Source: Candidatus Acidiferrum sp. (GTDB lineage Bacteria > Verrucomicrobiota > Verrucomicrobiia > Limisphaerales > UBA11358). From it: a stretch of DNA of 64,000 nucleotides. A model generated the notes under the pieces. It did no database searches, was not told where the DNA came from, and saw nothing but the letters and a program-made list of their open reading frames with translations. Positions 28,428-61,898 of the stretch are shown here, piece by piece. Position 1 is the first letter of the stretch, and each line of letters opens with the position of its first letter. The position numbers were made by a program, and so were the translations under genes. The DNA lies in the NCBI GenBank assembly GCA_035506715.1, contig DATJOW010000144.1, positions 4,560-68,559 of the forward strand. Direction: 5' to 3'.

Positions 28428-28737
28428 GATACGACGTTCGTTCCGCGGTTCGGCGGAATCGGGGAACGCAAGTGATGGTAGTGTGCTGTAGCCGACACTT
28501 CTTTGCAATGCCGGTTGCCGGATGAAGACCTTGAACTGCCCTCGCCCCGGCCCTCTCCCATCGAATGGGCAAGGGTGGCCGCAGGCCGGGTGAGGGTCTA
28601 TGTCAGCCATCCGCTCGATAAACCTCTCGCTGTTATATCACACTACCGGTTGCGACGCGTTCAGAAGATCATAAAACACCGGGCTGGTGTTTTGCCGGGC
28701 AACCCTGTATCTAAACCCTTGCAATCAATCGCGTCTC

Positions 28738-54885: not shown

Positions 54886-55026
54886 TAAAAGCGCCCAAAA
54901 CCCCAACATCCAAGCACCAGAGAAACTCCAAGCATCAAGCTCCAATCCCAAAACGGACGTTGCGATGTTTGATGTTTGGACGTTGGAATTTCTCTGGAGC
55001 TTGGCGCTTGGAATTTGGGTATTTCC
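54886..55026. repeat. Imperfect long hairpin built from CCAA-rich ~7-nt-period units, between convergent cydB and purM
   Basis: Left arm ...CCAACATCCAAGCACCAGAGAAACTCCAAGCATCAAGCTCCAAT. The reverse complement of the right arm is ...CCAAGCTCCAGAGAAATTCCAACGTCCAAACATCAAAC. It is likely a bidirectional terminator or REP-like element. Confidence 0.6.
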
Positions 55027-56094
55027 TCACTCCACCCGCGCCTTGCCCCTGCCTTTGACCACTTCCCCAATCAGCCAAGCCTTGTGCTTTTGAGCGCGGA
55101 TGAATTTCAGGATGGCATCCGCCTGACTCGCCGACACGATGGCGACCATGCCGATGCCCATGTTGAATACCTGGTAAAGCTCGGCGTCCGGCACGCGGCC
55201 TTTGGCCTCAATCAATTTGAAAATCGGCAGCATGTCCCATGAACCTTTCCGGATTACCACGTCGCAATTCTTTGGCAGCACGCGCGGAATGTTGTCCACG
55301 AACCCGCCTCCCGTAATGTGGGCGAAGGCTTTGATTGGATGTTGGGCGTTGAACGTTGAATGTTGAATGTTGAACTTTTTCAACAAGGCCTGCACGAGCG
55401 GGCCGTAGCTGACGTGGACTTTCAACAACTCTTTGCCAATTGTGCCTTTCAATCCCGGCACGCGGCTGGCCGGCTTCAACCGCATCTGCTCGAAGAAAAT
55501 TTTCCGCGCCAGCGAATAGCCGTTCGTGTGGAGGCCGCTTGACGCGATGCCGAGTACGGCGTCTCCTGCCCTCACGGTTTTCTGGCCGTTGAGCATCGTT
55601 GATTTTTCGACGATGCCGACAATCGTGCCGCTGACGTCGTATTCGCCTTTCTGGTAAAAGCCGGGCATCTGGGCGGTCTCGCCGCCGATGAGCGCGCAAC
55701 GATTCTCCGCGCAGGCGCGGGCGAAGCCGCGAATGATTTCGGTGAAGACGTGCGGCTCAAGCTTGCCGGCCCCGAGGTAATCCAGGAAAAACAGCGGCTC
55801 GGCACCCAGCACGGCAATGTCGTTGACGCAATGGTTCACGAGGTCGGCGCCGATGGTGTCGTGCCGGCCCATGGCAAAGGCGATTTTGAGCTTGGTGCCG
55901 ACGCCGTCCACAGACGACACGAGCACCGGCTCGCGGTATTTCTTGAGGTCGAGCGCGAACAGGCCGCCGAAGCCGCCGACCTTGCCGAGCACCTCGCGGC
56001 GGTGCGTGGAGGCGAGCAATTGCGGCAGGGTGGCTTTGACTTGGTTGCCCAGAGCAATGTCCACGCCGGCGGCGGCGTAAGCCTTTGGTTTCAT
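55027..56094 (-). CDS. purM: Phosphoribosylformylglycinamidine cyclo-ligase (AIR synthetase)
   Basis: Motifs: YAAAGVDIALGNQ, GGFGGLF, SVDGVGTKLK, GGETAQMPG, AHITGGGFVDNIPRVLP, FNMGIGMV. Confidence 0.95.
   Translation of the reverse strand: MKPKAYAAAGVDIALGNQVKATLPQLLASTHRREVLGKVGGFGGLFALDLKKYREPVLVSSVDGVGTKLKIAFAMGRHDTIGADLVNHCVNDIAVLGAEPLFFLDYLGAGKLEPHVFTEIIRGFARACAENRCALIGGETAQMPGFYQKGEYDVSGTIVGIVEKSTMLNGQKTVRAGDAVLGIASSGLHTNGYSLARKIFFEQMRLKPASRVPGLKGTIGKELLKVHVSYGPLVQALLKKFNIQHSTFNAQHPIKAFAHITGGGFVDNIPRVLPKNCDVVIRKGSWDMLPIFKLIEAKGRVPDAELYQVFNMGIGMVAIVSASQADAILKFIRAQKHKAWLIGEVVKGRGKARVE
55333..55374. repeat. Six tandem heptamers (TTCAACA-type on the coding strand) lying in frame inside purM
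   Basis: The minus strand reads TTCAACA TTCAACA TTCAACG TTCAACG CCCAACA TCCAATC, which is 42 nt or 14 codons (FNIQHSTFNAQHPI). It shares TTCAACGCCCAACAT with 61804-61818 and CCCAACATCCAA with 54902-54913. Confidence 0.7.
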
Positions 56095-56285: not shown

Positions 56286-56641
56286 TTTATAGCGCCATAG
56301 GCGCGACATCTTTGTAGTCTGCCATCCAAATCAATTCAAGCTCCGTCAGGAGCGGCACATTCTACTCGATTTCCAGACGATGCCGCTCCTAGCGGAGCTT
56401 GGCTGGAATTGGAACGACGGAACTACAGAGATGCCAGCCCTGACGGGCCTTTGTCCAAAAGCTTGGGGAAATTTGGACTGCGGTGGCAAGTGAAGCGCGA
56501 CACCGCTTTGGAATACAGCGGATCAATTGCATAATTAGCCACCACAAAAGCGCCGTCGCCGCTCCGCTTTGCCGGCGCACTCCAAAACCCAGTGAAACGA
56601 AATCGAATTGCGCTTGGGCGGGGTTGCGGCAGAATAGCCGG
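56286..56641. repeat. Repeat/hairpin-dense non-coding region upstream of apgM
   Basis: AAGCTCCGTCAGGAGCGGCA (56338-56357) pairs with TGCCGCTCCTAGCGGAGCTT (56381-56400) at 18 of 20 positions. GCGCC-ata-GGCGC lies at 56292-56304. Further GC-rich palindromic pieces are present. Track ORFs here look like repeat translations. Confidence 0.55.
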
Positions 56642-57868: not shown

Positions 57869-57938
57869 TCCTCCTCATCCTCGATCTCATTCTCATCCTC
57901 GCACTGGATGAATGAGGATGAGGATGACGAAGAGGAAG
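57869..57938. repeat. Imperfect hairpin made of hexamer-period units (CCTCAT / ATGAGG) after apgM; candidate terminator
   Basis: The left arm TCCTCCTCATCCTCGATCTCATTCTCATCCTCG faces GGATGAATGAGGATGAGGATGACGAAGAGGAAG. About 20 bp are pairable, with bulges. Confidence 0.5.
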
Positions 57939-57949
57939 ATTAAATTTTA

Positions 57950-58552: not shown

Positions 58553-58643
58553 AGGTAGAAGGCAGAGTGCGGAATGCGGAATGAAAACGTGAATTTTGCC
58601 TGAGGTTGATTTCTACCTTCTGCCTTCTTCCTTCTGCATTCGT
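58553..58643. repeat. Heptamer-period repeat block between convergent pgsA and the RodZ-like gene
   Basis: GGTAGAA GGCAGAG TGCGGAA TGCGGAA TGAAAAC ... TTCTACC TTCTGCC TTCTTCC TTCTGCA TTCGTTT. Units in the right block are reverse complements of left-block units. A 10-bp stem is possible (58557-58566 with 58619-58628). Confidence 0.6.
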
Positions 58644-61797: not shown

Positions 61798-61898
61798 GAA
61801 CATTCAACGCCCAACATTCAACGTCGAATATTCAATGTGCGATTCAGGGCGGCGATACTTGGGTGTTGGAAGTTGAATGTTGAGCGGTGAGTGTTTTT
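61798..61898 (+). terminator. Heptamer-period hairpin (TTCAAC-type) followed by a T-run, after the 60260..61792 gene
   Basis: The left arm ACATTCAACGCCCAACATTCAACGTCGAATATTCAA faces the right arm GGTGTTGGAAGTTGAATGTTGAGCGG (CAACATTCAAC pairs with GTTGAATGTTG). GTGTTTTTCC follows. Confidence 0.55.

What the first reader, a model, noticed from the sequence alone, without database searches (positions are those of the whole stretch)
55333..55374. Exactly six heptamer repeat units sit in frame inside the essential purM gene
On the coding strand purM reads TTCAACA TTCAACA TTCAACG TTCAACG CCCAACA TCCAATC. This is 42 nt, or 6 x 7 nt = 14 codons, giving FNIQHSTFNAQHPI just upstream of the conserved AHITGGG motif. 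The same sequence family occurs in intergenic hairpins nearby. TTCAACGCCCAACAT also lies at 61804-61818, and CCCAACATCCAA at 54902-54913, immediately downstream of purM itself. From memory, E. coli and B. subtilis PurM are roughly 10 residues shorter in this linker (e.g. ...LIEKVDVHAIAHLTGGG). This looks like a short-period intergenic repeat that has invaded or expanded in a surface loop of an essential enzyme. It would be tolerated only because the unit number keeps the frame, since 7-nt units restore the frame every 3 units. It could be a length-variable, slippage-prone site.
Basis: partly seen in the sequence, partly recalled or inferred. Interest (0 to 1): 0.6.

Follow-up and report, generated by a model that had tools for sequence, protein, structure and literature searches.

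The report
In-frame heptamer repeat in PurM loop
A soil/wetland Verrucomicrobial bacterium carries a 7-base tandem repeat, of the kind that forms hairpins between its genes, translated as an 11-residue floppy surface loop of the purine enzyme PurM, and in relatives the same loop changes in 21-base steps or holds other repeat elements.

Summary
purM (55027-56094, minus strand) reads TTCAACA TTCAACA TTCAACG TTCAACG CCCAACA TCCAATC in frame at 55333-55374. Solved PurMs and about 65 PurMs from other phyla have no residues here. The extra piece is exactly 11 codons (33 nt, IQHSTFNAQHP). The conserved F-N and I codons on either side extend the periodicity to six units. AlphaFold2 puts it in the only low-confidence interior stretch, between a helix and a strand.

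The array belongs to a dispersed family that forms long imperfect hairpins between genes. The purM copy is a single arm. The genome holds about 410 heptamer arrays with a length mode near 30 nt, and about 158 lie deep inside coding ORFs (UvrA checked against a solved structure).

Close relatives show unit-wise concerted variants. Five proteins have exactly three units fewer (21 nt). Other unit families, REPIN-like palindromes or a short GKPD loop occupy the same boundaries. Two UvrA sites behave the same way.

The best reading is passenger repeat DNA in a permissive loop. It survives because its length is a multiple of three and the TTCAACA strand has no stop in any frame. How arrays are written and replaced is unknown. 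This is a new variant of known kinds (heptanucleotide SSRs; in-frame selfish repeats).

The parts
55027..56094 (-). purM (AIR synthetase), 355 aa, single copy in the genome
   Evidence: The ORF is. Pfam finds AIRS plus AIRS_C. The PDB sequence match to 2z01 has E 4.5e-102. The AlphaFold2 model has pLDDT 92.5 and TM 0.91-0.95 to E. coli PurM 1CLI. G000 has one match.
55333..55374 (-). Run of six heptamer units, TTCAACA x2, TTCAACG x2, CCCAACA, TCCAATC, read in frame as FNIQHSTFNAQHPI
55336..55368 (-). The 33-nt (11-codon) segment IQHSTFNAQHP that is extra relative to solved PurMs and to PurMs of other phyla; a predicted surface loop
   Evidence: Exact 11-residue gap in alignments to 2z01 and 2btu. 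No loop in distant phyla. Residues 241-250 have mean pLDDT 69, between H231-241 and E254-259.
55368..55385 (-). Small inverted repeat TGTTGAA-AAAG-TTCAACA, formed by the conserved L-L-K-K-F-N codons and the first unit
   Evidence: Visible in the sequence. It is the only stem predicted in the region, and the fold of 55300-55420 is not better than shuffles, z -1.24.
54895..55019 (.). Intergenic heptamer-type hairpin between the convergent cydB and purM genes; contains CCCAACATCCAA
   Evidence: 37-nt arms, 78% complementary. Folding energy -61.7 kcal/mol, z -4.86, with 0 of 200 shuffles as good.
61799..61895 (.). Intergenic hairpin whose arms are TTCAACG/CCCAACA heptamer arrays, the same family as the purM array
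   Evidence: TRF period 14, 2.6 copies. Inverted arms of 37 nt, 78% complementary. Fold -52.1 kcal/mol.

Best explanation
The purM array is passenger repeat DNA translated as a surface loop.

What is shown:
- A 33-nt tandem array of the genome's own TTCAACR/YCCAACA heptamer family occupies the connection between helix 231-241 and strand 254-259 of PurM. The array corresponds to one arm of the hairpins this family forms between genes.
- PurMs of other phyla have no residues at this position.
- It is one of about 150 heptamer arrays that lie in frame inside genes of this genome.

Why it persists (follows from the sequence):
- Its length is a multiple of three.
- Seven and three share no factor, so a heptamer array yields the same seven codons in every frame. 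The TTCAACA strand contains no stop among them. The complementary TGTTGAA strand contains TGA, so only this orientation, and only a single arm, can be coding.
- The loop tolerates almost any sequence.

How it changes afterwards (shown by comparison with relatives):
- Units are homogenised together, for example TTCAACA to TCCAACA to TCGAACA across the whole array.
- Length changes survive only in three-unit (21-nt) steps.

What is inferred:
- The array was written from the genome's own repertoire by slippage or microhomology-guided template switching at the TTCAAC (F-N) and ATC (I) codons.
- The same permissive loop is hit or overwritten repeatedly. In relatives it holds other unit families, REPIN-like palindromes or a short GKPD loop.
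- The array probably has no function of its own in PurM.
For: Insert and loop:
- Exact 11-residue gap against 2z01 and 2btu.
- Zero-length connection in about 65 PurMs of other phyla.
- Residues 241-250, which hold most of the insert, are the only interior 10-residue block with mean pLDDT under 80 (69) in a pLDDT 92.5 model.

Family membership:
- 37 nt at 95% identity at C215:7413-7449.
- Exact 18-mer AACGCCCAACATCCAATC at C26:89062-89079. This covers the degenerate tail, so the match is not mere low complexity.
- 15-20 loci in all, mostly long hairpins.
- The in-gene copy has no partner arm.

Genome-wide picture:
- 605 period-7 TRF rows, against 267 for period 6 and 195 for period 8. The length mode is 29-32 nt, whereas other periods decay monotonically.
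- 158 of 410 arrays lie deep inside coding-looking ORFs. Of these, 11 of 158 have an inverted partner, against 54 of 125 intergenic arrays.
- The UvrA arrays are 31- and 28-residue insertions relative to 2r6f.

Evolution in relatives:
- Within one 90%-identity cluster the loops read IEHRTSNIEHP, IQHSTFNIQLP, SQPSTLNSQPG, ILSRVTRHVSPP and IQHP.
- The nucleotide sequences confirm the 3-unit alleles TTCAACA TTCAACA TCCAATC and TTCAACA TTCAACA TTCAATT.
- Other families and GTAG palindrome doublets sit at identical boundaries.
- In 6 of 10 cases the family found in a genome's purM ranks in the top 3 of 25 genomes for that family's abundance. About 1.2 would be expected by chance.
- The same turnover is seen at two UvrA sites.
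Against: - The writing and replacement mechanism was not observed.
- No empty-site/filled-site pair with readable junctions was found.
- Replacements leave no remnants of the previous insert, which simple nested insertion would not predict.
- The 33-nt length is conserved across many unrelated unit types. The genome-wide mode of about four units also points to some constraint or process beyond neutral slippage.
- The PurM tree is poorly resolved (12 of 137 branches well supported). Independent events therefore cannot be counted, and allele exchange between lineages cannot be separated from repeated insertion.
- Exposure of the loop rests on a predicted model. Distance to the active site and to the dimer interface was not measured.
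Confidence: 0.7

Rival explanations
1. Purely local origin. The array grew in place by replication slippage from the conserved F-N codons (TTCAAC plus the next A), with nothing imported from the dispersed family. Resemblance to intergenic arrays would then be convergence on a small vocabulary of units.
For: - The first unit is the conserved F-N codon pair itself, and TGTTGAA lies just upstream.
- xxCAACx-type arrays are the majority at this site (92 of 144), although this family makes up only about 3% of the genome's arrays.
- Three-unit and six-unit alleles exist.
- Graded variants with mixed units are seen (IQHPTSNIQHP, IEHPTSNIQHP).
Against: - The degenerate 3' tail AACGCCCAACATCCAATC is copied exactly in an intergenic hairpin arm.
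- Unrelated units (AATCCGC, TCGTCAC, CTCCGCA, ACGATTC) and palindromes occupy the same boundaries in relatives.
- The family found in a genome's purM tends to be abundant in that genome.
- Growth one unit at a time would pass through frameshifted purM.
Confidence: 0.18
2. The array is functional. Either it is a selected flexible linker of defined length in PurM, or it is a nucleic-acid site of about 4 heptamers read by a factor that recognises such arrays genome-wide.
For: - The 33-nt length is kept across many lineages and unit types.
- Genome-wide, arrays prefer about 4 units or 30 nt. The same four-unit preference was reported for GGGAATC repeats (PMC4692102).
- Units with stops in both orientations are depleted, 3.5% against 12.7% expected.
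Against: - The loop sequence is not conserved. In close relatives it is replaced by unrelated arrays, by 23-25-residue palindrome translations, by 4-residue and by 5-8-residue loops.
- Other phyla have no loop at all.
- Model confidence is low here.
- There is no significant RNA structure (z -1.24) and no Rfam match.
- Intergenic paired arrays show no preference for a gene context.
Confidence: 0.08
3. Nothing special: an ancestral PurM loop whose 7-nt periodicity is chance, or an assembly artefact.
For: Units 5 and 6 are degenerate, and TRF counts only 4.1 copies.
Against: - Shuffles never reach the observed count.
- The loop is absent outside the lineage.
- The identical protein is on record from three contigs in several sources.
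- An independent Logan contig covers 55342-55424 without a difference.
- The array is shorter than a read.
Confidence: 0.02

Closest known systems
Heptanucleotide long simple-sequence repeats of bacteria. These include: the over-representation of 7-nt units noted by Mrazek et al. 2007 (own knowledge; cited as ref. 33 in PMC4692102); cyanobacterial STRR; GGGAATC/GGGGAYT arrays of Xanthomonas and Nostoc (Rehm et al. 2015, PMC4692102); TAACTGA repeats of Beggiatoaceae (PMC4679880).
   Same: Tandem 7-nt units are spread over the genome in many copies. There is a strong preference for about four units. They are enriched outside genes (1.8-fold here) and depleted inside (about 2-fold). Their function is unexplained.
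   Different: The units here are not G-rich, so G-quadruplex formation cannot explain the four-unit mode. There are dozens of unit families in one genome. Intergenic arrays are often paired as inverted arms. About 150 are translated in frame inside conserved genes, and here one lies in PurM.
Rickettsia palindromic elements (RPE) inserted in frame in protein-coding genes (Ogata et al. 2000, Science; own knowledge)
   Same: Members of a dispersed repeat family sit in frame inside conserved housekeeping genes. They are translated as extra surface segments and tolerated without loss of the protein.
   Different: RPEs are 100-150-bp palindromes with a conserved sequence. The purM element is a 33-nt single arm of tandem heptamers, with no hairpin of its own, and its units are homogenised and replaced quickly. 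It changes length in 21-nt steps. The same site holds different element families in relatives.
REP / REPIN elements with RAYT (Y1) transposases; GTAG-tagged palindromes (PMC3733652; Bertels and Rainey 2011, own knowledge)
   Same: In relatives (G011, G022, L039, L041) the same PurM loop holds a doublet of inverted GTAGGACAGGC-N5-GCCTGTC palindromes. These are typical of the 18-59 copies found in those genomes. Y1 transposase genes are present in 23 of 25 genus genomes.
   Different: The window's own array has no GTAG head and no palindrome. The doublets have unique spacers rather than one conserved unit. No link between any Y1 transposase and either repeat type was tested.
Phase-variable coding SSRs (contingency loci), such as the H. 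influenzae heptanucleotide SSR (PMC12721329)
   Same: A short tandem repeat associated with a gene, whose copy number changes by slippage.
   Different: purM is intact in all relatives examined. Only frame-preserving three-unit variants are seen, so there is no on/off switching. The gene is a housekeeping enzyme, not a surface or restriction gene.

Membership tests
PurM (AIR synthetase, PurM-like superfamily) | AIRS N-terminal and AIRS_C C-terminal domains | tested here: met
   PF00586 scores 88.2 bits and PF02769 scores 89.6 bits, both over the cut-off.
PurM (AIR synthetase, PurM-like superfamily) | Fold and sequence match to solved PurM structures | tested here: met
   2z01 matches at E 4.5e-102. 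The model has TM 0.91/0.95 and rmsd 1.7 to 1CLI.
Heptanucleotide long SSR arrays | Head-to-tail 7-nt units, about 4 or more copies | tested here: met
   TRF reports period 7, 4.1 copies, 90% matches. Six units can be read by eye.
Heptanucleotide long SSR arrays | Genome-wide excess of period 7 over neighbouring periods, with a four-unit preference | tested here: met
   605 rows for period 7, against 267 for period 6 and 195 for period 8. The mode is 29-32 nt.
Heptanucleotide long SSR arrays | Copy number changes by whole units between relatives | tested here: met
   Three-unit against six-unit alleles at nucleotide level. Five proteins carry the short form.
G-quadruplex-forming heptamer repeats (Xanthomonas/Nostoc type) | G-tract in each unit, four tracts per array | tested here: not met
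   The unit TTCAACA / TGTTGAA has no G-tract on either strand.
RPE-like in-frame selfish elements | Member of a dispersed repeat family inserted in frame in a conserved gene at a surface site | tested here: met
RPE-like in-frame selfish elements | The element is itself a palindrome or hairpin of conserved sequence | tested here: not met
   The fold of the purM region has z -1.24, and only one arm is present. Intergenic relatives have unique spacers.
REP/REPIN-RAYT | GTAG or CGTC head followed by a short palindrome | tested here: not met
   Absent from the window's array. Present in the inserts of relatives L006, L015, L039 and L041.
REP/REPIN-RAYT | Cognate RAYT transposase flanked by or tied to the repeats | tested here: inconclusive
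   PF01797 has 7 matches in G000 and occurs in 23 of 25 genus genomes. Their association with any repeat family was not examined.
Phase-variable contingency locus | Unit gain or loss switches the reading frame on and off in natural variants | tested here: not met
   No stop or frameshift was found inside the full-length purM match of any relative; one fragmentary match in G013 has a TAG. Only 21-nt variants are seen.

The most novel reading that the evidence does not exclude
Limisphaerales-type Verrucomicrobia may possess an active copying process. It could be guided by microhomology or by DNA structure, and might depend on a Y1 transposase or a repair polymerase. The process would write modules of about 30 nt of heptamer arrays, and REP doublets, into defined sites and keep overwriting them. 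Permissive loops of essential proteins such as PurM, UvrA and MetH would then be fast-turnover repeat landing pads, where protein length and sequence are set by DNA repeat dynamics rather than by selection on the protein.
Probability: 0.2. Interest if true: 0.8.

Novelty: new variant of a known kind. Interest (0 to 1): 0.6.

Why it matters
The case shows, with a clear outgroup, that an unexplained class of bacterial repeats (heptanucleotide arrays) can colonise coding sequence of a central, single-copy enzyme and persist there. Two simple arithmetic rules explain how. A heptamer array has the same codon set in every frame, so a stop-free unit can never create a stop. Only three-unit changes survive.

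The orthologous loops give a natural time series: short loop, arrays of several families, three-unit deletions, nested insertions and palindromic doublets. From such a series the mechanism that writes and replaces these repeats could be worked out.

There is also a practical side. Such loops inflate apparent protein divergence. They create spurious low-complexity peptides such as KSEIRNPKSEI or NPQSAIRNPQ in databases. They also mark sites where foreign peptides can probably be inserted.

Tried and rejected
- Read pile-ups. The best runs are wetland metagenomes held only as short Logan contigs. One 83-nt contig confirms 55342-55424 and no indels are listed, but this cannot show or exclude 21-nt variants.
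- P0001/L038 as an independent close lineage. It is identical to the window over the first 821 nt of purM and 27% different afterwards, so it is a chimeric or recombinant contig and says nothing about conservation of the array.
- Counting independent loop changes on a PurM tree. FastTree gave 41 state changes, but only 12 of 137 branches are well supported. The count is not reliable and recombination cannot be excluded.
- Intergenic arrays as intrinsic terminators. Paired arrays sit in co-directional, convergent and divergent gaps in the same proportions as all gaps. Arm polarity also differs between families. The idea was dropped.
- RNA structure or a known RNA family in purM. The fold has z -1.24, and there is no Rfam match in the whole window.
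- Y1 transposase as a discriminator. It is present in nearly all genus genomes, so it is uninformative.
- The loose single-unit motif YYCAAYR. It is at chance level, so the family is defined by tandem arrays and not by the unit.

Full report
**The observation**

purM lies at 55027-56094 on the minus strand and encodes 355 aa. Its coding strand at 55374-55333 reads TTCAACA TTCAACA TTCAACG TTCAACG CCCAACA TCCAATC. This is F N I Q H S T F N A Q H P I, directly before KAFAHITGGG. Tandem Repeats Finder gives period 7, 4.1 copies and 90% matches at 55347-55375.

A two-unit pattern with up to two mismatches occurs 10 times in the window, against 2.48 +/- 1.70 in shuffles (0 of 100 shuffles reach 10). 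All extra hits lie in purM or in the hairpin at 61.8 kb. Single units are at chance level.

CCCAACATCCAA is at 54902-54913. Both lie in long imperfect inverted repeats: 54895-55019 (-61.7 kcal/mol, z -4.86) and 61799-61895.

**The gene and the insert**

The protein has both AIR synthase domains. It matches solved PurMs at E down to 4.5e-102. With a 77-sequence alignment it folds at mean pLDDT 92.5 and pTM 0.92. The model superposes on E. coli PurM 1CLI at TM 0.91/0.95. The genome has a single purM.

In the alignments to Geobacillus 2z01 and B. anthracis 2btu there is an exact 11-residue gap opposite IQHSTFNAQHP. I then fetched about 65 PurMs from other phyla, including Bacillota, Desulfobacterota, Nitrospirota, Acidobacteriota, Chloroflexota and Poribacteria. 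All of them join F[NDQG] directly to [IV]K-G-x-AHITGGG.

The extra DNA is 33 nt (55336-55368), which is 4.7 units. The conserved TTC AAC (F-N) and ATC (I) codons on either side fit the unit and bring the count to six. In the model the segment connects helix 231-241 to strand 254-259. Residues 241-250 are the only interior 10-residue block with mean pLDDT below 80 (69).

**Relation to the intergenic repeats**

A blastn search of the array against the laid genome finds 15-20 loci of the same family. The closest are:
- C215:7413-7449, 35 of 37 nt identical.
- C85:26253-26283, 30 of 31 nt identical.
- C210:336-369.
- C31:18209-18238.
- An exact 18-mer AACGCCCAACATCCAATC at C26:89062-89079. This covers the degenerate tail of the purM array, so it is not merely low-complexity identity.

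Most copies are the arms of hairpins of the form GRAAACATTCAAC...(unique spacer)...GTTGAATGTTTYC. The purM copy is a single arm. The only local stem is TGTTGAA-AAAG-TTCAACA, made by the L-L-K-K-F-N codons, and the region folds no better than shuffles (z -1.24).

A sequence-level point explains the orientation. Seven and three share no factor, so a heptamer array read in any frame cycles through the same seven codons. For TTCAACA none of these is a stop. The complement TGTTGAA contains TGA. Only this strand, and only one arm, can therefore be translated.

**purM is one case among many**

The genome is 4.55 Mb with 60% G+C. It gives 605 period-7 TRF rows, against 267 for period 6 and 195 for period 8. 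There are dozens of unit families (AAATCGT 65, AAAACTC 23, AATCCGC 22, AACCCTC 20, AACATTC 17 and others). The length mode is at 29-32 nt, whereas periods 6, 8, 9 and 10 decay monotonically.

I called coding regions with my own codon-usage score.
- Of 410 merged arrays, 158 lie at least 30 codons inside strong ORFs. Such regions cover 74% of the genome, so arrays there are about 2-fold depleted.
- 125 arrays lie wholly outside such ORFs. These regions cover 17% of the genome, so arrays there are 1.8-fold enriched.
- 54 of the 125 intergenic arrays have an inverted partner within 130 nt. Only 11 of the 158 coding arrays do. A control using plain reversal finds none.

Examples read as peptides include KSEIRNPKSEI, NPQSAIRNPQ and LNPQPSTLNR, in UvrA-, MetH-, HypF-, PurL- and RimO-like ORFs. 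I checked UvrA: its two array pairs are 31- and 28-residue insertions relative to Geobacillus UvrA 2r6f.

Earlier notes of this scan on other windows of the same genome describe the same class of arrays. I used them as leads only.

**What relatives show at the PurM site**

Names attached to homologs place the organism in Verrucomicrobiota, near Limisphaerales/Pedosphaera. I examined about 30 genomes of the genus and order and about 180 close database homologs. The stretch between F-N and [VIL]K holds the following:
- (a) 11-residue arrays of the same phase but different units: TTCAACA/TCCAACA/TCGAACA (IQHSTFN.., IQHPTSN.., IEHRTSNIEHP), CTCAACC (SQPSTLNSQPG), TCAAAAT (SKFKIQNSKLP), TCGTCAC (SSLVTRHSSLP), AATCCGC (QSAIRNPQSAI), CTCCGCA and ACGATTC.
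- (b) Five proteins exactly seven residues shorter (FN-IQHP-IK and FN-IQHS-IK). The nucleotide sequences confirm these as TTCAACA TTCAACA TCCAATC and TTCAACA TTCAACA TTCAATT.
- (c) One array interrupted by a 30-nt element that recurs just downstream of the same gene (L037).
- (d) 23-25-residue translations of inverted palindrome doublets, several with the GTAG head typical of REPs.
- (e) Short repeat-free loops, xVGKPDx. These also occur in other families of the order and are probably the older state there.

Most of these variants coexist within a single 90%-identity protein cluster. The loop therefore evolves far faster than the rest of the protein. Whole arrays change unit together, which is concerted change. 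Four- and five-unit forms, which would shift the frame, were not seen, and nine-unit forms were not seen either.

**Does the loop draw on each genome's own repertoire?**

I counted four families in 25 genus genomes.
- TCGTCAC is commonest in G003 and G012, and both carry it in purM.
- The GTAG palindrome is commonest in G022 (59 copies), G012 and G011. G022 and G011 carry it in purM.
- TCAAAAT is commonest in G004, which carries it in purM.
- TTCAACR ranks third in the window's genome.

Six of the ten carrier genomes are in the top three of 25, where about 1.2 would be expected. The association is imperfect: G023, G010 and G015 are carriers with few copies. It nevertheless argues that the loop is filled from the genome's current repeat population.

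The REP doublets of G022 have unique spacers. Five of 15 sit directly after ...AAC, as in purM. Two UvrA sites show the same turnover among relatives, so the behaviour is not peculiar to PurM.

**Explanation**

- Shown: the array is a lineage-specific, in-frame, single-arm member of a dispersed heptamer family. It lies in a predicted loop. It varies by concerted unit change and by three-unit steps. It shares its site with other repeats in relatives.
- Follows from the sequence: frame-independence, and the stop-free TTCAACA strand.
- Inferred: it is passenger DNA with no role in PurM. It was written by slippage or microhomology-guided template switching at TTCAAC and ATC. The site recurs because few places in a conserved enzyme tolerate insertions, perhaps helped by a target preference.

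I put 0.7 on this reading. A purely local origin from the F-N codons remains possible for the TTCAACA type (0.18). It explains why the unit equals those codons, but it does not explain the copied tail or the unrelated families at the same boundaries. A functional reading (0.08) is suggested by the constant 33-nt length and the genome-wide four-unit mode, but it is contradicted by free replacement of the sequence. Chance or artefact is excluded (0.02).

**What stays unexplained**

- Why replacements are clean, with no remnants of the previous insert.
- Why arrays prefer about 30 nt although their units are not G-rich. The G-quadruplex explanation given for the four-unit preference elsewhere (PMC4692102) cannot apply here.
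- What the intergenic hairpins do. They show no preference for gene ends.
- Whether the many Y1 transposases take part.

**Limits**

- Variation within the population could not be tested, because only Logan contigs are held.
- The PurM tree is too weakly resolved to count events.
- The coding census rests on my own ORF scoring and was verified in detail for purM and UvrA only.
- The Rickettsia RPE, Mrazek 2007 and Bertels and Rainey comparisons rest on my own knowledge of those papers.

Noticed in passing
window 56473-56584: An inverted-repeat element reads TTTGGACTGCGGTGGCAAGTGAAGCGCGACACCGCTTTGG ... AAAGCGCCGTCGCCGCTCCGCTTTGCCGGCGCACTCCAAA. The same family lies immediately downstream of purM in relatives L031-L035 and L037. 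It is a dispersed repeat that moves around the purM neighbourhood.
   Followed up: partly
L037:422-1519 and about 150 nt downstream: A 30-nt element CCAGTCTCCGCTGCGCTTCGCCCCGGCAAG is nested in frame inside the purM heptamer array of one relative (protein P0062). A near-copy lies in the repeat downstream of the same gene. It resembles the small dispersed repeats that nest in other repeats in cyanobacteria.
   Followed up: no
G000 C81:28019-28095 and 28668-28737 (UvrA): Two pairs of heptamer arrays are translated inside UvrA as 31- and 28-residue insertions relative to Geobacillus UvrA 2r6f. In genus relatives the same two sites hold other arrays, palindromic repeats or short loops.
   Followed up: partly
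G000 whole genome: Heptamer arrays have a length mode at 29-32 nt (about 4.3 units) although most units lack G-tracts. Units with a stop codon in both orientations are 3.5% of arrays, against 12.7% expected from array composition.
   Followed up: partly
G006 C247:4787-5128: A Y1 transposase (PF01797) gene lies about 440 nt from that genome's purM (C247:3299-4348). Y1 transposases are present in 23 of 25 genus genomes, with 7 matches in the window's genome.
   Followed up: no
L038 (contig of P0001): This contig is identical to the window over the first 821 nt of purM and then 27% different to the end of the gene. It is either an assembly chimera or a recombination breakpoint inside purM.
   Followed up: no
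window 58611-58641 and 57872-57939: Further short tandem arrays are present in the window: (TTCTGCC) x4.4, and period-6 arrays TCCTCA / ATGAGG facing each other.
   Followed up: no
G022, 15 loci (L119-L133): The GTAG-headed palindrome doublets GTAGGACAGGC-N5-GCCTGTCTC ... GAGACAGGC-N5-GCCTGTCCTAC have unique spacers of 20-45 nt. Five of the 15 sit right after ...AAC. This is unlike REPINs that are copied as one conserved unit.
   Followed up: partly
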